Source of the DNA: a virus
Taxonomy: Duplodnaviria > Caudoviricetes
IMG/VR virus record: IMGVR_UViG_3300044770_000090
Coordinates: 1 to 38,382 of that record
Strand: one strand, 5' to 3'
DNA length: 38,382 bases
The notes under the pieces are model-generated. The model was not told the origin of the DNA, searched no databases, and worked only from the letters and a program-made list of their open reading frames with translations. Below, piece by piece: positions 1,173-38,296 of this stretch (its first letter is position 1; each line of letters starts with the position of its first letter). Made by a program: the position numbers and the translations under genes.

Positions 1173-1484
1173 ATGGTATCGACTAAGTGTAGATGCGGTA
1201 AGCCTCGTGCCAGATCTAGCCGGGTCTGCCTCGATTGCCACGCGGCCTACATGCGCCGCTGGCGCGTGACGCACCGTCTGAGCCTTCCCCAGAGGCGCAA
1301 GGCCAGTGCCCGCAGGATGGCCACCGTCTACCAATCACGAGGGGCGCTCGCCGCTGGCCCCTGTGAGGCGTGCGGGGCGCAGAAGGCCCAGAACCACCAT
1401 GAAGACTATTCGAAGCCGCTGGAGGTCCGCAGGCTTTGCAGGCCGTGCCATCTGGCGGTCCACGGAACGGCGAAGGCGGGCTGA
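1173..1484 (+). CDS. HNH-like Zn-binding endonuclease
   Basis: CEACG...HHEDYSKPLEV..LC..CH...H motif typical of phage HNH proteins; N-terminal CRCG...CLDC; RBS GGAGGT. Confidence 0.8.
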   Translation: MVSTKCRCGKPRARSSRVCLDCHAAYMRRWRVTHRLSLPQRRKASARRMATVYQSRGALAAGPCEACGAQKAQNHHEDYSKPLEVRRLCRPCHLAVHGTAKAG

Positions 1485-1492
1485 CTGAAGTA

Positions 1493-1549
1493 GCGCGGGC
1501 GGGCCGGAGGAGGGGGTATCTCCTTCTGGGGAGGTGCTCCCGCCCGCGC
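1493..1549. terminator. GC-rich hairpin between convergent genes (possible bidirectional terminator)
   Basis: GCGCGGGCGGG (1493-1503) pairs with CCCGCCCGCGC (1539-1549), with an inner stem; no clear U-tract. Confidence 0.45.
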
Positions 1550-1565
1550 CAGGGGATGCCGGGGG

Positions 1566-2381
1566 CTACGGACTCGCCTCCCCCGCCGTCGGGACGATGA
1601 GGAAGATCCTGCCAGCGGTGGAGTCCTCCACATCGATCCCGTCGTTGATGGGCGAGCCGTATTCGATCTCGGCCCCCATGCCGAAGTCCCGCGCCGGGGA
1701 GAAAAACAGCCGGATCCCCGCGGTGCACGAGACTCGCAGGAACTGCTCGGTCGTCTCCGTGTCCACCATCGCTGTGGTCTCGCTGCCCTCCACGGTCACA
1801 GGCGTCTGCCCTGTCACCTTGTCGGTCCAGACGCCTCCGATGCGGGCCCCGAGATACGCGCGCACGCGGGATGCCGGGTCCCCGTCGTCGGTGGAATTGT
1901 CCCCGAGGTTGAGCCGGCCGCCCACATCCACGCGGTAGGCGCCGATCTCGGTTGCGAGTCGTTCGAGGTTCACGTTGCCCGAGAACCGGCCCGAGCGCAG
2001 CGGCTTGTCCCACGCGAATCCGTAGGCCATGCCCGAGTCGTCCAGCTCGTCGGCGTCGTCTCCGTCCGCGTTGACGTTGGCCTGGCCGATCGCGATCTCC
2101 ACGGTGCTGTCGTCGGCGAGGACGGTAGACGATGCGCCACCACAGACGGCGCCGGCGAGGAGCAGAGGCACGAGCAGCGCCGGCAGCGGGATGCCGGTCT
2201 GCTGGTCGTTCTTGTAGAAGAACCGGTGCCCCATGCCGGCGAAGCTCGGCAGGAACGTCGCGATCAGGAAGTTGATCACGAGAGCCGGGATCTTCCAGTC
2301 CTCCGGGAGCGTGTCGGTGGCGATGACGCCAGCCGCCGCGCCCCCGTTTGCCAGGTGTAGCCAGTTCGACAGATTCTTCAT
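1566..2381 (-). CDS. Holin-like TM N-terminus + signal peptide + predicted 8-stranded outer-membrane beta-barrel (271 aa)
   Basis: RBS GAGGAGG; two N-terminal hydrophobic segments; third segment LPALLVPLLLAGAVC...VLA|DD; eight alternating amphipathic strands such as YRVDVGGRLNL, RAYLGARIG, VSCTAGIRLFF, FGMGAEIEY; last gene of the lysis block. Confidence 0.65.
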   Translation of the reverse strand: MKNLSNWLHLANGGAAAGVIATDTLPEDWKIPALVINFLIATFLPSFAGMGHRFFYKNDQQTGIPLPALLVPLLLAGAVCGGASSTVLADDSTVEIAIGQANVNADGDDADELDDSGMAYGFAWDKPLRSGRFSGNVNLERLATEIGAYRVDVGGRLNLGDNSTDDGDPASRVRAYLGARIGGVWTDKVTGQTPVTVEGSETTAMVDTETTEQFLRVSCTAGIRLFFSPARDFGMGAEIEYGSPINDGIDVEDSTAGRIFLIVPTAGEASP

Positions 2382-2416
2382 CACGATCCTCCTCACGATC
2401 CATTGCGTTAGGCGGT

Positions 2417-2530
2417 TCACTTCACGATCAGGCTTGCGAGCTTGTTGCCGAAGTACCACCCGAAGCCGAGGCACAGCCCGGCCAGCACGTAGCACGCCGC
2501 GGCCCAAAGACTCCAGATGTCCCCACACAT
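2417..2530 (-). CDS. Small membrane peptide (37 aa) in the lysis block
   Basis: MCGDIWSLWAAACYVLAGLCLGFGWYFGNKLASLIVK; RBS AAGGAGG; TGATG coupling. Confidence 0.65.
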   Translation of the reverse strand: MCGDIWSLWAAACYVLAGLCLGFGWYFGNKLASLIVK

Positions 2531-2769
2531 CACGGCACCTCCTTCGGTTCCTCTGCCTGCTGCTGGAGCTGTTCGTGGAAGCCCTCGTAGTACTCCGGGC
2601 TCTGGCCCGTGTAGACGACCCCGTTGCAGGTGTCGAGCGCGCCTTCCTTGCGGGCTATCACCTGCTGGTTGAAATGGTTCGTCGTGTACCAAGCGAGGAT
2701 CGCCGGCAGCGCCATCTTCACGAGATCGAGGATCCACTTGCGCCATTTGTCGCTTTCGGTCTCGCTCAT
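2530..2769 (-). CDS. Small membrane-anchored protein (79 aa) in the lysis block
   Basis: WILDLVKMALPAILAWY hydrophobic segment; coupled to both neighbours. Confidence 0.65.
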   Translation of the reverse strand: MSETESDKWRKWILDLVKMALPAILAWYTTNHFNQQVIARKEGALDTCNGVVYTGQSPEYYEGFHEQLQQQAEEPKEVP

Positions 2770-3086
2770 CGGCCCCTCAGTTCCTGCTGGCGCAGCCGCT
2801 CATCGAGCTTCTGGAGGTAGCCATTCAGGGCGGCGGTGTTCTCCTTGATGCTTGCGGAGAGATTCCCAATCTCGAAGCGCAGGCTGCGCAGCTCGTAGTC
2901 CCTGATGGCCTCGAGGGTGGCCTTGTTCTCGATGAGGGCCTTATCCTGGCGCTCGTTGTTGTCCGAGTTGATCAGGATCTGCCGGCCCATGTAGGTGAAC
3001 ACGACCACGATGAGAAAGCCGGCCAAGCCGACGAGTCCTCGCGCGATCAACGGCCAGCTCGGATAGTGCCCCTCGGGGCTGCTCAT
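2766..3086 (-). CDS. N-terminal TM + coiled-coil protein (holin- or i-spanin-like topology), 106 aa
   Basis: GLVGLAGFLIVVVFTYM TM followed by a heptad-rich tail; ATGA coupling. Confidence 0.65.
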   Translation of the reverse strand: MSSPEGHYPSWPLIARGLVGLAGFLIVVVFTYMGRQILINSDNNERQDKALIENKATLEAIRDYELRSLRFEIGNLSASIKENTAALNGYLQKLDERLRQQELRGR

Positions 3087-3523
3087 GCGAACTCCGGCTC
3101 TGGGATGACGATCCATTCGGGCGTGTCGCCCTTCTCGGGCTCCGTCGGTGTGCCGAACTTCAGCCCGCGCAGCGCGTACCACGCCCGGAAGCGACCCATG
3201 CCGTCGGCGATACAGATCCGCTGAAAGAGTTCATCGGCCTGCCGCTTGCACGGGTAGTAATCGAGCAGCCCCATCCGCAGGAGCTGATAGATCGCGTCGT
3301 GCACGAGCGAGCCGCGCATCGCGGTCTTCGTGTCGCGCATCGGACCGGACGGCCCGTCCCACATGTAGCCGCCTTCCTCGCCGCCGTCGATGATGAGCAC
3401 CCCGGCCATGTCGAGACGGATATAGGGCACGTCGATGATCGCGGAGGGGAGAATGTCGGTGGCGATGGTGTAGGTGGCCCCGAGCTGGTACTTCCATCGC
3501 GGCTTGATCTCGCGGTATCTCAC
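3083..3523 (-). CDS. DUF1353-family protein
   Basis: KYQL...GYMWDGPSGP..DT...MRGSLVHDAIYQL.R...AD..F...GM...RA motif. Confidence 0.8.
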   Translation of the reverse strand: MRYREIKPRWKYQLGATYTIATDILPSAIIDVPYIRLDMAGVLIIDGGEEGGYMWDGPSGPMRDTKTAMRGSLVHDAIYQLLRMGLLDYYPCKRQADELFQRICIADGMGRFRAWYALRGLKFGTPTEPEKGDTPEWIVIPEPEFA

Positions 3524-4044
3524 GCGGCGCCTCCGGGAAGCGCCGGGGTTGATGTCACGCCTGCAGGGAACGCCTTGCGCGAAAGTTCGACGTGAGGACC
3601 GTCGATCAGCGGCCCTTCGTCCGGGCCAGCGTTAGGGCGTGCCTTGTACCAGCGCACGCGGTACGCCTTCGCCTCGAAGTCCAGATCGCCGTGGATGTCG
3701 TTGAGCAGGCGGTCCCACACTCCGCCCCAAACAATCGGAACGCCCTGTTCTATCGCCGCCGTCCTGAACGCCGCCGCGATGAGCGGGTAGGGCGGCCAGT
3801 CCCAGCTAATCTTCCCGCCGACATAGGCCGCAAAGTCGATGGCGTGGCCTGTCAGGTGACGCCCATCCATCGTCCGCGATGCGCCCGAGGCTACCAGCGC
3901 GGCCTGCCGTATCTTCTGGCGTAGGCCCTCCGTGATGCCGAAGTCGATCTGCGAGATCACGATCGCCCGGCGCACCACGCGCACGAGGGGCTCCAGCACG
4001 CCGACGAGCCGCGACTCCGACGCTCCCCCGAGCTGGTAGATCAC
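3520..4044 (-). CDS. Endolysin, M15-family L-Ala-D-Glu peptidase
   Basis: DFGITEGLR...RQ..LVA.GASRTM..RHLTGHAIDF...WGG.W...DGPHVEL Zn-peptidase motifs. Confidence 0.9.
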   Translation of the reverse strand: MIYQLGGASESRLVGVLEPLVRVVRRAIVISQIDFGITEGLRQKIRQAALVASGASRTMDGRHLTGHAIDFAAYVGGKISWDWPPYPLIAAAFRTAAIEQGVPIVWGGVWDRLLNDIHGDLDFEAKAYRVRWYKARPNAGPDEGPLIDGPHVELSRKAFPAGVTSTPALPGGAA

Positions 4045-4454
4045 GGGTTCACCATCGCCGGGATCTCAGGGTGCATCGTGCGCAGCTGGCCGAGCATGCT
4101 GAAATCCTCTTGCGTCACGCAGTCCGACGCCGCAAACCCGCCCGCGCCGTCATCCCACACCGCCGAGACGCACCCGTAGATCAGGCGCCCGAGAGCCGGC
4201 TGGGGCGTGGTGCAAAGCACATCGCGCCAGGGGCCGTAGGTCTCGGAAAACAGGATCGTCCCCATCTCCAGCGCGGGTTCAATCCCCGACTGCAGCGGGC
4301 GGTACACCTCGCACAGGTAGCCGTCCCACGCCGACCCGGGAAAGGCCGTCGCTGGCGCGTCGAAGATGAAAAACGCCGCGTCCCCCGGCGCCGCCAACAG
4401 CAGCAGCAGGGAGAGTGCCGAGAGGACCTCGACGTTGACGGGGATGTTGATCAC
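4041..4454 (-). CDS. Exported protein with signal peptide and FN3/Ig-like beta domain
   Basis: LSALSLLLLLAAPGDA signal-like segment; F.FDAP...DGY...Y.CVSAV...S pattern; four Cys. Confidence 0.55.
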   Translation of the reverse strand: MINIPVNVEVLSALSLLLLLAAPGDAAFFIFDAPATAFPGSAWDGYLCEVYRPLQSGIEPALEMGTILFSETYGPWRDVLCTTPQPALGRLIYGCVSAVWDDGAGGFAASDCVTQEDFSMLGQLRTMHPEIPAMVNP

Positions 4455-29627: not shown

Positions 29628-30785
29628 CTACTCCAGAAGCGCCCGGCACAACGCGCGGGCGAGGTTGACTGGTACGGCGTTTCCGATCTGACGCACGCGC
29701 TGCTCTTGGTTGCCGGCGATCTGGTAGCCGTCATCGAACGACATGGCGCGCGCGAGCTCGTGAGGCTGGAGCATCCGGAAGTGGACATCGAGGACCGCGC
29801 CATCAGTCTCGGCGGTGACCAGCCCGAGCCGATCCTTCGCTGCAACGGTTGGGACCGGACGGCTCGTCGCACGCGGCGCCCCTCCTGACTGCTGCTGGAG
29901 CAGGAACGGCTCGCACAACCCAAGGTGCTGACCCTGCGCTGTTACAGCGGGGACAGGCCGCTCGATAGAACGTGCCGTGCCTGTGCCGCGCAGGATGACG
30001 AGGAAGGGTTCGAGCTGCGGCCCACCGAAGCGCCGCAGCCCCGCGATGATCCGATTCATCGTCGCCGGAGACAGGGGCCGCTTCCGCGCGAAGATGGACT
30101 GAGACGGCAGGGCCCAGTCGATGATCTCCCGGGCGGCCTTCCACTGCTCGGTCTTCCGGTGCAGCCCAGGGTTTTCGGAGTGCGATGGTTCCGGCCATGA
30201 GATCCGGTGATTCCCCCGGCGCGCCAGGATGAAGAGCCGCTCGCGTGTTGTTGGGTCGCCGTAGTCCGCGGCGTTGAGGATCCGGTCCTCGACCCGGTAG
30301 CCCAGAGACGAGAGCGCCGCCAGGAAGGCGCGGTAGGTCTCCCCCTTGTGCGTTTTCATGGGTCGGCCCCCCACCCCCACCGGCCCCCAGTCGCGGAACT
30401 CGCGGACGTTCTCCACCAGGAGGTTGTCCACGTAGATCGCCTCGGCCCATCTCAGGACGTGCCAGGCAGACGCGCGCTTCTGATCGGTGACGGGGCGTCC
30501 CCCGCGCGCGTTGCTGTGGTGGGTGCACTCGGGCGAGGCGACCATCAGATCGAGCCGACCCGAAGGGACCGCCGTTCTCGGGCTCACCGTGTCGAGGTCG
30601 GAGCACAGGTGCCGGGCGAAGGGATGGTTCGCCGTGTGCGTCCGGATCGCCACGTCCCAGTGATTCACGGCGACGAGATCGAGCCCGAGCCCGAGATCGC
30701 GGCACGCGTGCGCGAGGCCGGTGGACGTTCCCCCGGCCCCGCAGAACAGATCGGCCGCTCGGATGACGCGGGCGGCGGCGGTCAT
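29628..30785 (-). CDS. C5-cytosine DNA methyltransferase (385 aa)
   Basis: Motif I DLFCGAGG, IV SPEC, VI ENV, VIII TTRERLF, IX R.L...E.AR, X QIGNAVP. Confidence 0.93.
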   Translation of the reverse strand: MTAAARVIRAADLFCGAGGTSTGLAHACRDLGLGLDLVAVNHWDVAIRTHTANHPFARHLCSDLDTVSPRTAVPSGRLDLMVASPECTHHSNARGGRPVTDQKRASAWHVLRWAEAIYVDNLLVENVREFRDWGPVGVGGRPMKTHKGETYRAFLAALSSLGYRVEDRILNAADYGDPTTRERLFILARRGNHRISWPEPSHSENPGLHRKTEQWKAAREIIDWALPSQSIFARKRPLSPATMNRIIAGLRRFGGPQLEPFLVILRGTGTARSIERPVPAVTAQGQHLGLCEPFLLQQQSGGAPRATSRPVPTVAAKDRLGLVTAETDGAVLDVHFRMLQPHELARAMSFDDGYQIAGNQEQRVRQIGNAVPVNLARALCRALLE

Positions 30786-31048
30786 AGGAGGACCTGCTGA
30801 ACGGGCAGGCAGATGGGAGGCACCGGCTTCCTGCGTACAGCGCGCTGGCGCAGCCTGACTCCATCCGGCGGAGCGCCCATCGTCCACTCGCGCTCTTTCT
30901 CCGTGGCCGCGAGCTCGTGCTCGAACGACAGGTAGCCAGCTTCGCGCGCGCCCATGTCCATCAGCACCTCGCACCACTCCCTGCGCTTGCAGAGCTGGCA
31001 CGTCCGCTGATGAGCGAGCGAGGCGGAGATGGTCTCGCGCTGCATCAC
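30782..31048 (-). CDS. Small hypothetical protein with H...CxxC...C
   Basis: HQRTCQLCKRREWC; coupled at both ends. Confidence 0.6.
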   Translation of the reverse strand: MMQRETISASLAHQRTCQLCKRREWCEVLMDMGAREAGYLSFEHELAATEKEREWTMGAPPDGVRLRQRAVRRKPVPPICLPVQQVLL

Positions 31049-32111: not shown

Positions 32112-32341
32112 CACGTCCTCCTCCATGTGTCCGCCACCCTGCAGGGATGGCAGCCCCCGGTCAGACGCACCCGGCACACCAGAGCGTGTGCGAGATGCGC
32201 GCGCGCCTTGCCGATCTCCGCCTGCTGGGCCTTCACGGTGGCACCGTTGGCCTCCGCTTCCCTGCGGGCCGCGGCGAGATCGCAGCGGAGGCGGTCGAGG
32301 TCAGTGCGCTGGCGCGCGATGGTGCCCTGCGGGACGCTCAT
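32111..32341 (-). CDS. Small coiled-coil protein with C-terminal H..C...CHPC (76 aa)
   Basis: ATGA and TGATG coupling to neighbours. Confidence 0.6.
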
Positions 32342-32928
32342 TGGCCTGGCGTGACCGGGCACGCGGGCGACGCCTTCTCCCCCAGCGGATTCGGCAGTAG
32401 CCGCGCGTCGAACAGCCGCACGAACTGATACACGCGCGGGCGCAGCAACATCGGCACGCGCGGATCTTCGGGACTCTCCGCGCCGTTGAACGCCACGTGC
32501 ATCGGGCAGTTGCCCCAGTCGTGGCAGTTCCACGCGGTGGCGACTTCCTCGATCGTGCGCCCTCCCGCGGTGCACAGAGACGGAACGACGCTCTCGATGT
32601 ACTGAGCCAACGTCTCTCCGGTCTCAAGACGGGCGCCCCCGAGGTCGGCGCCCCTGAGGTTGGCGTCCCTGAGGTCGGCGTCCCTGAGGTCGGCGTCCCC
32701 GAGGTCGGCGCCCCTGAGGTCGGCGTCCCTGAGGTCGGCGCCCCTGAGGTTGGCGTCCCTGAGGTTGGCGTCCCTGAGGTTGGCGCCCCCGAGGTCGGCG
32801 TCCCTGAGGTCGGCGTCCCTGAGGTTGGCTTTCTTCCCGACGGCGATCTCCATCGCCGCGCGGATCGAGTCGGCCTCGACCTCGAGCAGCACTTTGCCGG
32901 TCCACCAGGATTTGATCTCGATCTTCAT
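32338..32928 (-). CDS. Pentapeptide-repeat protein (196 aa)
   Basis: MKIEIKS..TG.VL N-cap; 13 x A(N/D)L(R/G)(D/G); RBS GGGAGG; ATGA coupling to sbcC. Confidence 0.92.
32635..32829. repeat. 13 x 15-bp tandem repeat encoding the pentapeptides
   Basis: Unit G(T/C)CCC(T/C)GAGGT(C/T)GGC repeated 13 times. Confidence 0.95.
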
Positions 32929-35423
32929 GCGGCCTCCCTCTGAAGAGTTGTAGTGATCCGCCCGTCGGCGACGAAGAGGCGCGCGTCGGCCGCCTCCCAG
33001 ACTTCCTGACTGTGCGAAACGAAGATCACCTGACGGAACGCCCCCAGCTCGCGCGCGCGGCGCAGCATTGAGACGTAGGCCATCGCGTTGTCCGGATCGA
33101 GGGCCCCGGCGGCCTCGTCCAGCCACAGCGTCTCCCAGCGAACACCGGCCTTCCGGACGTTGAAGATTGCAAAGGCCAGCCGGACGGCCGTATCGATGAC
33201 CACACCCTGGCCGCCCGAGAGAGCCTCGACCTGCTTCTCGCGTCCGTTGTGCGTGACGCGAACGTCGAAGCTCTCCGTGTACTCGCCCCTGGCGGACTTC
33301 TTCTCGCGCAGGGTCTCGAACGCGACGCTGTAGCGGTTATCGCCGGGCCAGTCCGCAAGCAGCGCGTTGATGATGGCGACGACTTCTGGGCCCGCCGCGT
33401 CGATCTCCAGCGCCTGGACGCCGTCCTTACCCAGCGCCCGCTCGAGGAGCGACCAGTCGCCCAGGTGCATCTGGAGATCGGCCACGCGAGCGCGCAGGTC
33501 GCCCATGACCTTGCCTTTCTCCTGCAGCTGTGCGACGCGCGCCTGGATGCCAGCGCGGGCGATGTCGGCCTCCCGCAGTGCTTGCTCCGCCTTCGCACGG
33601 GTCTGCGACGCCAGCGCGTGAGCGCTCGCCACGCCGGAGGTGTCCTCGTCACGCTCGGCGTCCTTGAGTGCACGGTGTGCAGGGCCGTAGGCCTCCGCCG
33701 CGATCCTGAGCGACTCGGTAGCCGCCTCGAGCTCGACCTCGGCGTCTTGCAGCGCGGCGTCTCTTTCCGCCTGCGCCGCGGCGAGCTGTTCGGTGGCGGT
33801 CCCGGCTTTGGTAGCGGCCTCCTGCATCTCCCGTGCGAGTGTCGCCTGCGCGTCGGTGGCCTCTTCGACGAGGGATGCGAGCTGCTCGCGGGCGGTGGAG
33901 GCAGCTTCGGCCTTGGCGATCCAGGCGTTGAGCTCGCGCTCGCGGACGGCGAGAATGGAGAGGCCCCGCTCGGGTGACTCCTGCGCCTCTTTGAACGTCA
34001 GCAGATTCTGCAGGTCACTCGCCTCGCGGGTCCTTTCCGCGACGCGCTGCTTTTCGTACAGGATCCCCTCGTTGCTGAGGACCTCGAGCCCCCCGCGGGC
34101 CCCTCGAGCGTCAGCCAGGAGGGGGCAGGTGCCGGCGAGATCGGCAATTCCGCGGCCATCCTGACGACGCACTGTCCCCGTTGCGGGGGGCGCCAGCTCC
34201 GGGTCCCATCTCGGCGCCTCCGTACACGGCGCCTGCTCCATCAGCGCCGCCTGCCGGGTCAGACGCTCCACTTCCCGCCGGAGGGCCTCGGTGGCGGCCT
34301 GCAACTTCTGCTCTGCGAGGACGACCGCGTTGGTGGCGGCGGCGGAACGACGGCGGAGATCCTCCAGCTCCTTACGCTGGTCCTCGTAGTAGGTGCGCTG
34401 GTCGGCCAGCTCCTCGAGCTCCTGGCGCGCGGCTGCGGCATCGGGGACATCCGCCAGGGCCGCCTCGAGCCGCTCCCTGCGCTTTGCGAGCCGCTCCATG
34501 GTCTCGGCATGTCGACGACGGATGGGCTCCTTGAGCTTCTCGACGTCGGTCTCCCCGAGGAAGCGAAGCTTCCGCTGGAAGTCCTTCTCGACGTTCGCAC
34601 CGCGCAGGACCGCTGCCTGCTTGGCACGCTCGGCCCGATCCAGCTCTCGACTGGCCGAAGCCTCAGCCGCCCGGAGTGCTTCGCGCTTACCGGCCGCGGC
34701 CTTGGCACGCTCTAGAGCAGACAGCGCTGCGGTCTCCTCCGCGCGCGCCGCCACCAACGCTGTCCCGGCTGAATCCACGAGCAGGGTGGCGTTCTCGAGA
34801 AGGGCGAGCTGCTCAGGCAGTGCGTGGAGCTCGAGCATCAGCTCGCGCTCTTTCGCCTGCGCCGTCTCGAGCGTTCGCGTCGTCTCCCCGCGATGCTCCC
34901 CGGCGATCTCCGACATGACCTGGAGCATCGCGAGCCGGAGCATCTCGATCACGAGCTCCTTGCGCTGGGACTTCTTGGCCCGAAGAAACGATCCATCCTT
35001 GCTCTGCGACGAAAACACCGACGCCAGGAACAGATCGAGTGACCCGAACCTGCGTCCGATCTCTGTCTCGAACTCCGCCGCGCGGCCGGTGGTGAGGCTC
35101 GCGCCATTGACGAAGAGGTAGGCCTCGGTCGTGCGGTGCTCGGCGTCAACTTGGACGCGCACCTTCAGCTCGTCGCCGCCGTCGTCGAAGATGGCTTCCA
35201 CGAAGGCGTTTGTCCCCTCCCATCCCTCGTACCACCCGGGACGCGACGGGAAGGTCTTGTAGAGCGCAGTCGGTGCCGCTTCGAGACAACTGGTCTTTCC
35301 CGAACCGTTGCTGCCGACCAGTGCGATCAGGCCATCGCCGACGGCGTCAAGATCGATGGTGACGGGGTCGGGCCCGAGGAACGCATCGACGCGGCCGCGG
35401 AACGTGACGCTGCGGAGTCTCAT
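32925..35423 (-). CDS. sbcC: SbcC/Rad50-like SMC-family ATPase (832 aa)
   Basis: Walker A GSNGSGKT, long coiled coil, signature LSGGQ, Walker B/D-loop [12 protein letters not shown]-loop FVSH. Confidence 0.93.
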
Positions 35424-35869
35424 CGGCCAGCCTCTCGAACCGCCAGTCGCGGACGCCGTGCGTGCTCCGCCTCCACCGTGCCACGCACGAAGGCGATGAA
35501 CTCTTCAGGCGTCGCGAAGACGGTGACTTCGGGCAGATACGAGAAAACGTGGCTGCGCTCGCCGATCCAGAAGAGGCGGCGCTTCAGAGCCAGCGCCATC
35601 CCGAACTCGACGTTTGACCCGCCGCGCATTCCAGCGGGCGCGAAGTAGACCAGCGTCTCAGCTTGGCCGACGTCGTACACGTCGTGATTAGCAAGCTCGG
35701 CGTTGAACTCTTGACTCTTCGGATCGTCTGCCATCCGGTGCTGAGGGTCGGTGAGCCACCGGCTCGTTACTTCGATTCCGAGCGAGCGCAGGGTTACACC
35801 CAGCGCCTCGAACTCCTCTCGGCGGCTCCATCTTCCGGCGAGGTAGACCTTCCCCAGTGTCACGCTCAT
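35420..35869 (-). CDS. Nucleoside 2-deoxyribosyltransferase (NDT) / nucleotide N-glycosidase family protein
   Basis: KVYLAG, DVYDV, GGSNVEFGMA (catalytic Glu) motifs; flavodoxin-like pattern; coupled to sbcD and sbcC. Confidence 0.8.
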   Translation of the reverse strand: MSVTLGKVYLAGRWSRREEFEALGVTLRSLGIEVTSRWLTDPQHRMADDPKSQEFNAELANHDVYDVGQAETLVYFAPAGMRGGSNVEFGMALALKRRLFWIGERSHVFSYLPEVTVFATPEEFIAFVRGTVEAEHARRPRLAVREAGR

Positions 35870-37044
35870 GCCGCCACCTCCCGGGTCTGCTCCGCCTCGA
35901 TCGCTGCGAGCTTCACGCGGATCCTCTCGCGGGCCGCGTCGTCGATCTCGATCTCCTTGGCCGCGAGCCAGGCCTCGATCTTCTGGAACGAGTCCTTCGC
36001 CTCGACGATCAGCTCCGAGCGCACGCGGGCGGACTGCTCAACGATGGCTTCGAGCTTCACCTCGTGGGCGCCCCGGGCCAAGAGGGCTGACCGGATCTGA
36101 TCTTCGTCCACCGTGTGCAGCTCCTCGGCCGGGACGTGATACCGGAGGCGGACTAGATCGCCCGGCTCGACGTAGGTGTCGTCCACGACAAGCACCCCGT
36201 CGCGCCTTCCCGCTTCGATGTGGACGATCCTCCGCGCCGGCAGCTCGACGAACTCGCTGCTGACTATCTGACCGTTGTGTATCTCAACGATCCTGACTCC
36301 CTTGGGGTCTTGCACCTCTCCGTGGTCGTGGCGCGTGGAGTTGCCGGAGTACGCGACCCGCCCGCCCAGCCACGATTGATGGAGATGGATGTGGCCCAGC
36401 GCGGCATAGGCTGCGCCGATGTCGGCGATGTCGGCCGGAGAGACCTCCGCGGTCTGCCCGATAAGCGGCTGGCCTGAGGAGGCGATGGAACCACCGATCA
36501 TGGCGTGTGAGACGAACAGCGGGGTGGCGCCCTCGCTCCGGATCCTGCTCGCCTCGGCGCGCAAGCATGTGAGGAGCTGGCGCATCGCCTCGATCGTGAG
36601 GCGCTGGGTCTCCGTGATGTCTGACGTCGCCGGCAGACCCGCGACGAGATGGGCTTTGTTCACCCAAGCGAGACCCAGCAGACCGACGCGGTCCCCGCCT
36701 GCGAGATTCCAGATCGGCGCCGCACCCGGAAGCGTCGCGCGCTCCTCGATCCTCAGCGGGTGCCGGGTCCGGAGGCGGTTGAAGATCTCGAGGTCGCCCG
36801 CCTGGTCGTGATTGCCCTTGACCCCGTAGAGAGGCGCGACTTCCGTGATTGCCTGGAGCCAGTCCGCAAGTGCGGCTCGCTCCGCAGCGGTTGAGCGGCG
36901 CTCGAAGAAGTCTCCGCCGTGGAGGACCAGGTTCACTTCGCGCGCGCGGGCCAGCGCAACGATCTTCTCGTGCATTGCGATCACGTCGGAGAACCGCTTC
37001 GACTGGTCGAAATGCGAGTCGCTGGTGTGCAGAAGGCGGATCAC
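35866..37044 (-). CDS. sbcD: SbcD/Mre11-like metallophosphoesterase nuclease (392 aa)
   Basis: LLHTSDSH, GGDFF, GNHD, SH, ALGHIH..Q, YSG.....HGE...KG; GTGA overlap. Confidence 0.93.
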   Translation of the reverse strand: MIRLLHTSDSHFDQSKRFSDVIAMHEKIVALARAREVNLVLHGGDFFERRSTAAERAALADWLQAITEVAPLYGVKGNHDQAGDLEIFNRLRTRHPLRIEERATLPGAAPIWNLAGGDRVGLLGLAWVNKAHLVAGLPATSDITETQRLTIEAMRQLLTCLRAEASRIRSEGATPLFVSHAMIGGSIASSGQPLIGQTAEVSPADIADIGAAYAALGHIHLHQSWLGGRVAYSGNSTRHDHGEVQDPKGVRIVEIHNGQIVSSEFVELPARRIVHIEAGRRDGVLVVDDTYVEPGDLVRLRYHVPAEELHTVDEDQIRSALLARGAHEVKLEAIVEQSARVRSELIVEAKDSFQKIEAWLAAKEIEIDDAARERIRVKLAAIEAEQTREVAA

Positions 37045-38198
37045 CGCGCCCCTCCTCTGCTCTTGAGCCACTCGATGTTTGCGGCAATCGCCTGCACGCC
37101 CGATGTCTTCGGGAACTTGGCGATCTCGAGGTCCTTCAGATCGGCGTGCGCCTTCTGGTCGAACTTCGGCCCCCACGGGTAGCACTCGCCGCACCGGATC
37201 GATCCGACGAGCTCGCGCGTCTTCTGGGCAACGGCCTCGGAGACCTGGAGCTGGTGGCCACAGGGACATCCGCACAGCGCGACAGGGGCGGACTGAGCCA
37301 CCGGATCTTTCGCCGGAGGCGGAGCCGAGGGCGCACCGAACAGCGCCTCGTCGACGTCGTCGGTCCCGTGGAGGGCCTCGCGCTCCTCGTCCTCGGTCAT
37401 GCGCACGACGCGATCGGCAGGCGGGAGCGACCGCACCGGCTCGGGGCGGTTGTCGTGATCGCGGGGAACGTCGATGATCTTCCCGCCCTCGGGAAGCGCC
37501 TTCGGCGTCCCCGGTCCGTAGATCTTGTCGGCGATGCCGAGCGATTGGGCGGCGACCATCTTGCGCACCTCCGGATCGGACATGTCCGGATCCGCGACGA
37601 GCGCCGGGACGACGAAGGGCTTCGCCAGTTCCGTGAGCGTGTACTTCTGGCGCAGGGCGAGAGCCCCGCGCACCGCGCGCAGCAGCGCCTTCGTCTCGGC
37701 CATCTCGTGGAGGAACTGACGCGCGGAGGCGAGCTGGTTGGCCGTGAAGGACGCGACCTGCGCCGACCCGTCGCGGTAGTCCACGCGCTTGGAGCCGATG
37801 TACTCCACGCGCGTCCCGTCGAGCTGGGGGACCGAGATCCGGACCTGCCAGTCGCACACGTACTGCTCGCGCCCGTCGTCGGTCCTGGTCGACTCCACCA
37901 CCGTCGCGCCGGCGGCCTGGAGCAGCTTGAGGATCATCGTCTTGCCTGGGGCGCGTTCGTTGGGCTCGCAGAACTTCGGCTTGTAGACGTCGGCCCCCGC
38001 CGGGTCGATCACGACGGCCCGCAGAGAGACGCGGTGCATCGGCGGGATGTAATCGACGTGCTGAACGGGGGTGATGAGGTTCGCGTGCGCCGCGACCTGG
38101 TCGTAGGCCTCGCGCAGGTTCTCGATCTTCGCAATGGGCGCCTCGGGCAGATAGTCGAGCCTGCGCGCGAGAGCCGTTGTTTCCTTGGTGGTTGCCAT
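37041..38198 (-). CDS. Putative single-strand annealing recombinase (RecT/Redbeta-like) with C-terminal Cys cluster (385 aa)
   Basis: EMAETKALLRAVRGAL helix resembles the annealase MAxKxAxxRA motif; upstream of sbcD/sbcC; RBS GGAGG; CGCPC...CGEC tail. Confidence 0.6.
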   Translation of the reverse strand: MATTKETTALARRLDYLPEAPIAKIENLREAYDQVAAHANLITPVQHVDYIPPMHRVSLRAVVIDPAGADVYKPKFCEPNERAPGKTMILKLLQAAGATVVESTRTDDGREQYVCDWQVRISVPQLDGTRVEYIGSKRVDYRDGSAQVASFTANQLASARQFLHEMAETKALLRAVRGALALRQKYTLTELAKPFVVPALVADPDMSDPEVRKMVAAQSLGIADKIYGPGTPKALPEGGKIIDVPRDHDNRPEPVRSLPPADRVVRMTEDEEREALHGTDDVDEALFGAPSAPPPAKDPVAQSAPVALCGCPCGHQLQVSEAVAQKTRELVGSIRCGECYPWGPKFDQKAHADLKDLEIAKFPKTSGVQAIAANIEWLKSRGGAR

Positions 38199-38208
38199 GG
38201 TATCCTCC

Positions 38209-38234
38209 AAAAGTCAAAGGGGCCTGACAGCCCC
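38209..38234 (-). terminator. Possible intrinsic terminator/attenuator upstream of the recombination block
   Basis: Minus strand GGGGC-TGTCAG-GCCCC followed by TTTGACTTTT; a second 9-bp hairpin (ACGCCGGCG/CGCCGGCGT) lies at about 38255-38277. Confidence 0.45.
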
Positions 38235-38296
38235 GCCCAACCTGAATGAGGAGCACGCCGGCGCCCACCGCCGGCGTTGCTACTTAAGACCCAGTG

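What the first reader, a model, noticed from the sequence alone, without database searches (positions are those of the whole stretch)
1566..2381. Holin-like membrane domain fused to an outer-membrane beta-barrel at the end of the lysis cassette
Seen: one ORF with a strong RBS encodes (i) two hydrophobic segments in about the first 50 aa, (ii) a third signal-peptide-like segment ending in a plausible SPase I site (STVLA|DDST), and (iii) eight amphipathic strands (VEIAIGQANV, MAYGFAWDK, FSGNVNLER, YRVDVGGRLNL, RAYLGARIGGVW, VSCTAGIRLFF, FGMGAEIEY, AGRIFLIV) in an OmpA/OmpW/Lom-like pattern. The usual terminal aromatic BAM-signal residue is absent. Known: Gram-negative lysis normally needs spanins, either an Rz/Rz1 pair or a T1 gp11-type unimolecular spanin anchored in the outer membrane by a lipoprotein. 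Inference: this is either a polyprotein whose cleavage yields an inner-membrane holin plus an OM barrel in fixed ratio, or an uncleaved IM-to-OM tether using a beta-barrel instead of a lipid anchor. Either would be a lysis architecture I do not know to have been described. It could instead be a Lom-like superinfection-exclusion OMP.
Basis: partly seen in the sequence, partly recalled or inferred. Interest (0 to 1): 0.8.

Follow-up and report, generated by a model that had tools for sequence, protein, structure and literature searches.

The report
Holin-like protein fused to outer-membrane barrel
At the end of its cell-bursting genes, an uncultured phage encodes one protein that joins a small holin-like domain, likely in the inner membrane, to a predicted outer-membrane barrel through a signal-peptide-like segment; it is likely cut in two, and the barrel would then be a candidate for opening the outer membrane in a phage with no recognisable lipoprotein spanin.

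Summary
ORF 1566-2381(-) (271 aa, strong RBS) is the last gene of the lysis cassette of a 38-kb phage record. Residues 90-264 model as an eight-stranded OmpA/NspA/OmpW-type barrel (pLDDT about 90; Z 17.5). Independent assemblies bridge the junction. Six of 19 relatives carry the same N-domain on barrels 20-97% identical, one has another hydrophobic N-domain, and 12 are plain signal peptide plus barrel. The N-domain is under purifying selection and was never found alone. All 8 fused proteins keep an AxA-type site, and only 10-18 residues separate the third hydrophobic segment from strand 1, so cleavage is likely and an uncleaved tether unlikely. No coding-strand lipoprotein (o- or u-spanin) was found. 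Weak points: helix 1 is barely hydrophobic, no holin family matches significantly, three other membrane genes could be the holin, three related loci keep an internal start before the signal segment, and the barrel's elaborated loop faces outward. Best reading (0.4): a self-splitting precursor giving a holin-like piece and an outer-membrane lysis barrel. A receptor-masking or Lom-like barrel is the main rival (0.27). The architecture was not found in the papers searched; function is untested.

The parts
1566..2381 (-). Fusion gene, 271 aa: N-domain + internal signal segment + barrel
2388..2394 (-). Ribosome-binding site GAGGAGG, 6 nt before the ATG
   Evidence: sequence
2193..2381 (-). Holin-like N-domain, residues 1-63: weakly hydrophobic Gly/Ala-rich helix 1, hydrophobic helix 2, conserved PSxxGxGH motif and basic loop
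   Evidence: pN/pS 0.27
2115..2192 (-). Internal signal-peptide-like segment, residues 64-89, predicted cut after A89
   Evidence: pN/pS 0.8
1569..2114 (-). Predicted eight-stranded outer-membrane barrel, residues 90-271, with a long hairpin (187-212) that faces outward if OmpA-family topology holds
   Evidence: pN/pS 0.15
2417..2530 (-). 37-aa single-segment membrane protein, conserved in L002 and L003
2530..2769 (-). 79-aa protein with a weak N-terminal hydrophobic segment and a helical tail; i-spanin-like or holin candidate
   Evidence: no family hit
2766..3086 (-). 106-aa membrane segment plus coiled-coil-like tail; i-spanin, releasin-like or one-segment holin candidate
   Evidence: PHROG 739 Rz-like E 0.049; DUF2730 E 0.067, below cut-off
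3083..3523 (-). 146-aa DUF1353-like protein
   Evidence: phrog_1158 E 1.5e-12; DUF1353 E 0.04
3520..4044 (-). M15-type endolysin without signal or SAR segment
   Evidence: phrog_465 E 3e-49
1491..1551 (-). GC-rich stem between this gene and the convergent + strand gene; possible end of the late operon (weak, no U tail)
   Evidence: z -2.28, 6 of 200 shuffles fold as well; not called by the terminator scan

Best explanation
The gene encodes one precursor that is likely cut by the host signal peptidase after A89 into a small, likely inner-membrane holin-like protein and a predicted eight-stranded outer-membrane barrel, and the barrel would serve as the outer-membrane half of this phage's lysis machinery in place of a lipoprotein spanin. 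Steps: (1) shown: one reading frame, last gene of the endolysin cassette, barrel fold in the model, same N-domain on divergent barrels. (2) Inferred from hydropathy and charge: helices 1-2 form a hairpin with the basic 50-66 loop in the cytoplasm, so segment 64-89 points outward like a signal peptide. (3) Inferred from conservation: signal peptidase I releases the barrel, and BAM inserts it into the outer membrane. (4) Inferred from context only: the N-terminal piece accumulates in the inner membrane as a holin or holin partner. The barrel is then the outer-membrane anchor that, with one of the upstream membrane-plus-helix proteins (106 aa or 79 aa), draws the membranes together once the endolysin has removed the wall. 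The fusion would fix the ratio and timing of the two pieces. My odds by step: fusion real 0.97, barrel 0.93, cleavage 0.75-0.8, holin-type role 0.55, barrel acts in lysis 0.45.
For: Fold: pLDDT blocks 78-95 over residues 91-260; Foldseek NspA E 1.4e-7, OprF 5.1e-7; VIA-align NspA Z 17.5 (rmsd 3.0, 147 aligned), OmpW Z 17.2, OprF Z 16.3 (rmsd 1.9, 133 aligned). Fusion: 6 of 19 relatives share the N-domain; N-domain identity to the window 39-84% against barrel 20-41% in the five distant ones; N-domain profile finds only these fused clusters and none of 363 short candidates; pN/pS 0.27. Cleavage: [AVS]xA site in 8 of 8 fused and 11 of 12 stand-alone proteins; 10-18 residues from h-core to strand 1; chance per protein 0.17-0.52 in composition shuffles. 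Context: cassette order kept in L002 and L003; genes from the 137-aa gene to the 79-aa gene overlap by 4 nt; no lipobox ORF on the coding strand in any frame. Kongari et al. state that 'an OMP could act as an o-spanin' and that about 13% of genomes lacked spanins (PMC6139136, section 15).
Against: No significant holin match: none for the window's N-domain at E<=10; phrog_565 holin E 0.062 in 1 of 7 members; Atlas Holin_Dp1 score 0.78, a lead only; BFVD best E 1.7. Helix 1 is weakly hydrophobic, pinholin-like, yet the endolysin has no SAR segment. Three other membrane genes could be the holin. The barrel's periplasmic turn 160-172 is short or missing in 5 of the 6 fused relatives, barrels swap freely (one clade rejected, p-AU 0.008, long branches involved), and the elaborated loop is on the outer face; all three fit an outward-facing job. 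Context is known for only 3 loci, two of them close kin. The record has an 86-nt terminal repeat but a CheckV estimate of 45%, and my lipobox scan is a simple pattern, so a spanin could be missed.
Confidence: 0.4

Rival explanations
1. Cleaved precursor, but the barrel is not a lysis protein. It is a Lom-like surface protein that masks the phage receptor, excludes other phages or protects progeny from binding host debris, and it rides on a holin-like gene for late expression.
For: The long, variable hairpin (187-212, longer in relatives) lies on the outer face by OmpA-family topology. Barrels are exchanged and divergent while the N-domain is kept. Closest folds include NspA, Ail and OmpX. Small barrels are common in phage genomes (35 BFVD matches at E<=0.001). 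12 of 19 relatives stand alone.
Against: No Ail/Lom family hit. No integrase or repressor recognised in the window, so lysogenic conversion is not indicated. It leaves the outer-membrane step without any candidate.
Confidence: 0.27
2. The N-domain is not a hole-former but a timing leader. It holds the barrel at the inner membrane and slows cleavage, so the barrel is released late or partly mis-inserts into the inner membrane and depolarises it.
For: N-domain never found alone; helix 1 is SAR-like; IM-tethered LamB(A23D) is toxic, probably by inserting into the IM and collapsing the proton gradient (PMC4817254, passages).
Against: The cleavage site is canonical in 8 of 8 fused proteins. Small eight-stranded barrels are poor pores (own knowledge).
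Confidence: 0.13
3. Uncleaved IM-to-OM tether: a unimolecular spanin with a barrel instead of a lipid anchor.
For: Topology would place one end in each membrane; no lipoprotein spanin found; fused linkers are slightly longer than stand-alone ones (10-18 against 6-13 residues).
Against: Fifteen residues reach about 5 nm, well short of a periplasm of roughly 15-25 nm (recalled figure). The AxA-type site is conserved, the signal segment evolves like a signal peptide (pN/pS 0.8), and tethered LamB is not assembled in the OM. u-spanins have a lipobox, a periplasmic beta domain and a C-terminal membrane segment (PMC6139136, abstract and section 13); none is present.
Confidence: 0.1
4. Two neighbouring genes joined by loss of a stop codon. 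The barrel is made mainly from an internal start, and the fusion is tolerated rather than selected.
For: L002, L003 and L004 carry AGGAG, 6 nt, ATG in frame before the signal segment. L004 has a 1-nt deletion in the N-domain that leaves that start intact. Module boundaries recur at this point.
Against: The window has neither the SD nor the ATG there, confirmed in three independent assemblies. The open junction is kept across proteins only 30-38% identical. No stand-alone N-domain was found.
Confidence: 0.1

Closest known systems
Eight-stranded outer-membrane barrels (NspA 1p4t, OprF N-domain 4rlc, OmpW 2f1t, OmpA, OmpX/Ail; Pfam PF13505)
   Same: Fold (Z 16-17.5), strand alternation, signal-peptide-like segment before strand 1.
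   Different: 10-14% identity; below the Pfam cut-off (16.2 against 28.7 bits); no terminal aromatic; preceded by a 63-residue membrane domain; phage lysis-cassette gene.
Two-component spanins (lambda Rz/Rz1)
   Same: Position after the endolysin; upstream membrane-plus-coiled-coil protein with a faint Rz-like hit.
   Different: The outer-membrane candidate is an integral barrel, not a lipoprotein; no embedded or overlapping lipoprotein gene. An OMP acting as o-spanin is only proposed, without an example, in PMC6139136 section 15.
Unimolecular spanins (T1 gp11)
   Same: One gene with inner- and outer-membrane parts in a lysis cassette.
   Different: Reverse order, no lipobox, no periplasm-spanning domain, conserved cleavage site between the parts.
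Class II holins and pinholins (phage 21 S; recalled)
   Same: Small helical hairpin, weakly hydrophobic Gly/Ala-rich first helix, basic ends.
   Different: No significant family hit; fused to a barrel; paired with a non-SAR endolysin.
Lambda Lom and other phage-encoded OMPs (recalled)
   Same: Phage-encoded eight-stranded barrel.
   Different: No Ail/Lom hit; Lom is a plain signal peptide plus barrel outside the lysis genes.
Bradyrhizobium FbcH precursor of cytochromes b and c1 (recalled; not found in the library)
   Same: Polytopic inner-membrane protein followed by an internal signal peptide that is cut to free a second protein.
   Different: Respiratory, chromosomal; second product stays at the inner membrane.

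Membership tests
OmpA-like eight-stranded OM barrel | Eight antiparallel amphipathic strands closing a barrel | tested here: met
   Model strands; NspA Z 17.5, rmsd 3.0, 147 aligned; alternation clear in strands 3-8
OmpA-like eight-stranded OM barrel | Pfam PF13505 gathering score (28.7 bits) | tested here: not met
   16.2 bits, E 0.012; the fused relative in L004 passes with 31.1 bits; 6 of 20 members hit at E<=0.1
OmpA-like eight-stranded OM barrel | C-terminal beta-signal GXX-aromatic-X-aromatic (PMC13067283, passages) | tested here: not met
   G257-R-I-F260-L-I262: second aromatic missing; same in stand-alone relatives; the review says several OMPs lack it
OmpA-like eight-stranded OM barrel | Cleaved signal peptide and outer-membrane localisation | not testable with these tools
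   No SignalP or bench test; AxA-type site conserved
Holin | Small protein with at least one membrane segment encoded in the lysis cassette | tested here: met
Holin | Match to a described holin family | tested here: inconclusive
   No hit for the window at E<=10; phrog_565 E 0.062 in 1 of 7; Atlas 0.78; BFVD E 1.7
Holin | Timed lethal lesion in the inner membrane; complements lambda S- | not testable with these tools
   bench test needed
Pinholin (class II) | Paired with a SAR endolysin | tested here: not met
   Endolysin has no charge-free N-terminal hydrophobic segment
Unimolecular spanin | N-terminal lipoprotein signal | tested here: not met
Unimolecular spanin | C-terminal membrane segment after a periplasmic domain | tested here: not met
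   C-terminus is the barrel; linker 15 residues
o-spanin | Outer-membrane lipoprotein | tested here: not met
   No lipobox in the window's protein; relatives L002 and L003 have LSAC in the third segment
o-spanin | Adjacent type II membrane protein with periplasmic coiled coil | tested here: inconclusive
   106-aa and 79-aa candidates; Rz-like E 0.049; flank charges do not fix orientation
Ail/Lom | Sequence match to the Ail/Lom family | tested here: not met
   No hit in 20 members at E<=0.1 or for the window at E<=1; fold is related

The most novel reading that the evidence does not exclude
A new class of phage lysis protein: one self-splitting precursor that uses the host signal peptidase to deliver a holin to the inner membrane and an integral beta-barrel to the outer membrane in fixed ratio, the barrel replacing the lipoprotein o-spanin. 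It would be the first example of the 'OMP as o-spanin' route proposed for spanin-less phages.
Probability: 0.3. Interest if true: 0.88.

Novelty: new variant of a known kind. Interest (0 to 1): 0.66.

Why it matters
How spanin-less phages of Gram-negative hosts cross the outer membrane is open: about 13% of genomes in the spanin survey had none, and an OMP acting as o-spanin was suggested there without an example (PMC6139136, section 15). This gene gives a concrete candidate that can be tested in the standard lambda complementation platform. Whatever the barrel does, a phage precursor that sends its two halves to two different membranes by an internal signal peptide was not found in the papers searched. 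It also warns annotators that such genes read as 'hypothetical' or as a plain OMP.

Tried and rejected
Complex prediction of barrel (90-271) with the 106-aa protein's tail (34-106): no answer, score 0.00, controls not folded; not used either way. Viral-contig scans with the protein, alignments A2, A3, A4, A6, A7, A9, A10: 0 confirmed relatives in 8 scans. Genome-contig scans: 0 in 2. tblastn against annotated phages with P0001, P0018, P0005 and against plasmids with P0016: no match. So the host and the context of the stand-alone barrels remain unknown. PDB sequence search: nothing meaningful. NCBIfam: nothing for the fusion. Fold search of the N-domain model (pLDDT 69): no match at E<=0.001; a holin on top at E 1.7 is chance level. 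Atlas scores 0.88 (whole) and 0.81 (residues 1-89) are leads only. P0019 (2065 aa, repeat protein) was dropped from the 20 hits as unrelated; P0007's 43-residue extension on a 916-nt contig was counted as stand-alone. Upstream GTG starts (2396, 2528) rejected: 2396 has no SD, and 2528 lies inside the 37-aa gene. RNA-library contigs cannot rank genes or show transcription, and parts without cover mean nothing. Promoter scan: no site before the gene; count at chance level. The L004 upstream fragment resembles the end of the 79-aa protein only weakly. PMC9360617 and PMC8705779 (passages) held nothing relevant. Supplements were not read; those of PMC6139136 list spanin-less phages and might bear on novelty.

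Full report
Setting. The window is a whole virus record, G000, 38,382 nt, classed as having direct terminal repeats; I found an 86-nt repeat and 66.7% GC. CheckV's estimate is only 45%, which sits oddly with a gene set that includes both terminase subunits, portal, protease, major head, adaptor, tape measure, replication initiator and SbcCD-like genes. No integrase was recognised among 41 proteins scanned. Nearly all genes lie on the minus strand. The host is unknown. [quoted passage not shown]

The observation. ORF 1566-2381(-) gives 271 aa with GAGGAGG 6 nt upstream and no SD-linked internal start before codon 90. It ends the cassette: 137-aa secreted protein, M15 endolysin (phrog_465, E 3e-49), DUF1353-like gene, 106-aa, 79-aa and 37-aa membrane proteins, then the fusion. 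Contigs from 3 of 4 DNA runs laid bridge the N-domain/barrel junction without indel. All 4 RNA-library runs laid have a contig on the gene, and one (X18, 1891-2489) bridges the junction; this does not show transcription, as DNA can be in such libraries.

The barrel. AlphaFold2 on a 20-row alignment gives eight long strands plus a hairpin at 189-210, with pLDDT 78-95 over residues 91-260 and 47-75 over the first 90. Foldseek's top PDB matches are NspA, OprF, Ail and OmpA. The independent aligner gives NspA Z 17.5 (rmsd 3.0, 147 aligned), a Legionella porin Z 17.5 (rmsd 5.0), OmpW 17.2 and OprF 16.3. Pfam OMP_b-brl scores 16.2 bits, under its cut-off, but the fused relative in L004 passes. The beta-signal lacks its last aromatic, as in the stand-alone relatives; a 2026 review notes OMPs without it (PMC13067283, passages). 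By OmpA-family topology (own knowledge) the long hairpin faces outward and the 160-172 turn faces the periplasm.

Relatives. phmmer over 1.84 billion representatives gave 20 hits. One, P0019, was dropped as an unrelated repeat protein. Of 19, six share the N-domain (P0003, P0005, P0009, P0011, P0014, P0018), one has a different hydrophobic N-domain (P0020), and 12 are signal peptide plus barrel. None of the clusters looked up lists an NCBI source. A profile of the N-domain found only the window's cluster and those six among 7,995 longer candidates scored and none of 363 short ones; this word-based search has limited reach. In the five distant fused relatives the N-domain is 39-72% identical to the window's and the barrel 20-41%. 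On a barrel tree the seven fused rows do not form one clade (p-AU 0.008; 10 of 17 inner branches open, three long branches). So the N-domain has been joined to, or kept with, different barrels more than once. Against L002, pN/pS is 0.27 for the N-domain, 0.80 for the signal segment and 0.15 for the barrel: the N-domain is a selected protein, and the middle segment drifts as signal peptides do.

Context of relatives. Three loci were retrieved. L002 and L003 are close kin with the same cassette order. L004 has the same N-domain and signal segment on a different barrel. Its start overlaps the stop of an upstream gene and it is followed by phage-type regulators; it has a 1-nt deletion near codon 31 that may be an error or real. 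All three carry AGGAG, 6 nt, ATG in frame just before the signal segment; the window does not. A second, barrel-only product is therefore possible in some relatives but not here. Contexts of the other relatives could not be fetched.

Cleaved or tethered. An [AVS]xA site lies between the hydrophobic core and strand 1 in 8 of 8 fused and 11 of 12 stand-alone proteins, and A89 aligns with the stand-alone -1 Ala. Composition shuffles give 0.17-0.52 per protein (product 1e-4, overstated because kin are not independent and the stretch is Ala-rich). The linker is 10-18 residues, about 5 nm extended, against a periplasm of roughly 15-25 nm (recalled). LamB with a damaged cleavage site stays at the inner membrane, is not assembled in the outer membrane and is toxic (PMC4817254, passages). 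I put cleavage at 0.75-0.8. A bacterial precedent for an internal signal peptide, Bradyrhizobium FbcH, is recalled and was not found in the library.

Is the N-domain a holin? It models as a helical hairpin (pLDDT 69) with basic N-terminus and basic distal loop. Helix 1 is weakly hydrophobic and 47% Gly/Ala/Ser, like a SAR segment. Family evidence is faint: nothing for the window at E<=10, phrog_565 holin E 0.062 for 1 of 7 members, Atlas Holin_Dp1 0.78, BFVD holin E 1.7. The endolysin has no SAR segment, so a large-hole holin is needed, and the 106-, 79- and 37-aa proteins are also candidates. The 106-aa protein has faint hits to both Rz-like spanin and DUF2730; DUF2730 is the Mu releasin family, N-out and C-in (PMC9239132, passages). 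LambdaSo shows that extra small membrane proteins can be needed for lysis and that spanins can be missed by homology (10.1101/2024.01.23.576932, passages).

What the barrel does. A pattern scan of all frames found no lipoprotein on the coding strand; the only hits were one antisense frame near 37,012. Known spanins use a lipid anchor, and Kongari et al. list about 13% spanin-less genomes and suggest that an OMP could act as o-spanin (PMC6139136, abstract, passages, sections 13-15). Position, fusion to a holin-like domain and the missing lipoprotein favour a lysis role. Against it, the barrel's periplasmic face is small and not conserved among fused forms, barrels are interchangeable, and the elaborated loop points outward, which suits receptor masking or exclusion. 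I give 0.4 to the lysis reading, 0.27 to a surface-protein barrel, 0.13 to a timing leader, 0.1 to a tether and 0.1 to a tolerated fusion with internal start.

Novelty. Searches for spanin, holin, barrel, fusion and lysis-module terms listed no paper describing a holin-signal-barrel gene; most hits were seen as listings only, and the library lacks most subscription papers. Earlier notes of this scan report the same layout in other genomes. They are unchecked AI notes, I could not test them, and I do not count them as support; no note matched this protein by sequence.

Verdict. A real, conserved and apparently undescribed two-membrane fusion in a phage lysis cassette. Cleavage is likely; holin and outer-membrane lysis roles are inferred and directly testable. 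New variant of a known kind; interest 0.66.

Noticed in passing
L002:1574-1618 and L003:1699-1743 (third segment): After the internal ATG these relatives have a textbook lipobox (LSAC), so the internal start could give a lipidated barrel; the window has GAVC and L004 has no Cys there.
   Followed up: partly
L004:155-165: One base missing in a C run breaks the N-domain frame while the internal SD plus ATG stays intact; error or real loss of the N-domain.
   Followed up: partly
window 4041-4454 (-): 137-aa protein with a signal-peptide-like N-terminus, coupled directly upstream of the endolysin; no family hit. Another possible envelope or lysis factor.
   Followed up: no
window 2417-2530 (-): 37-aa single-segment membrane protein, well conserved in L002 and L003; absent directly before the fusion in L004.
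   Followed up: partly
window 1173-1484 (+): Cys-rich 103-aa protein, phrog_2340 endonuclease E 1.7e-10, one of very few plus-strand genes, convergent with the fusion and kept in L002.
   Followed up: no
P0020 (no locus): A barrel of the same family carries a different N-terminal domain with two hydrophobic segments and its own internal signal segment, suggesting a second independent fusion.
   Followed up: partly
window 32338-33126 (-): Gene with a short-period repeat; the antisense translation suggests a pentapeptide-repeat protein (inferred; PHROG hits are of unknown function).
   Followed up: no
window, whole record: Direct terminal repeat of 86 nt and a full-looking gene set, but a CheckV completeness of 45%; no integrase recognised.
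   Followed up: no
window 29628-31001 (-) and 32925-38268 (-): DNA methyltransferase and SbcC/SbcD-like genes.
   Followed up: no
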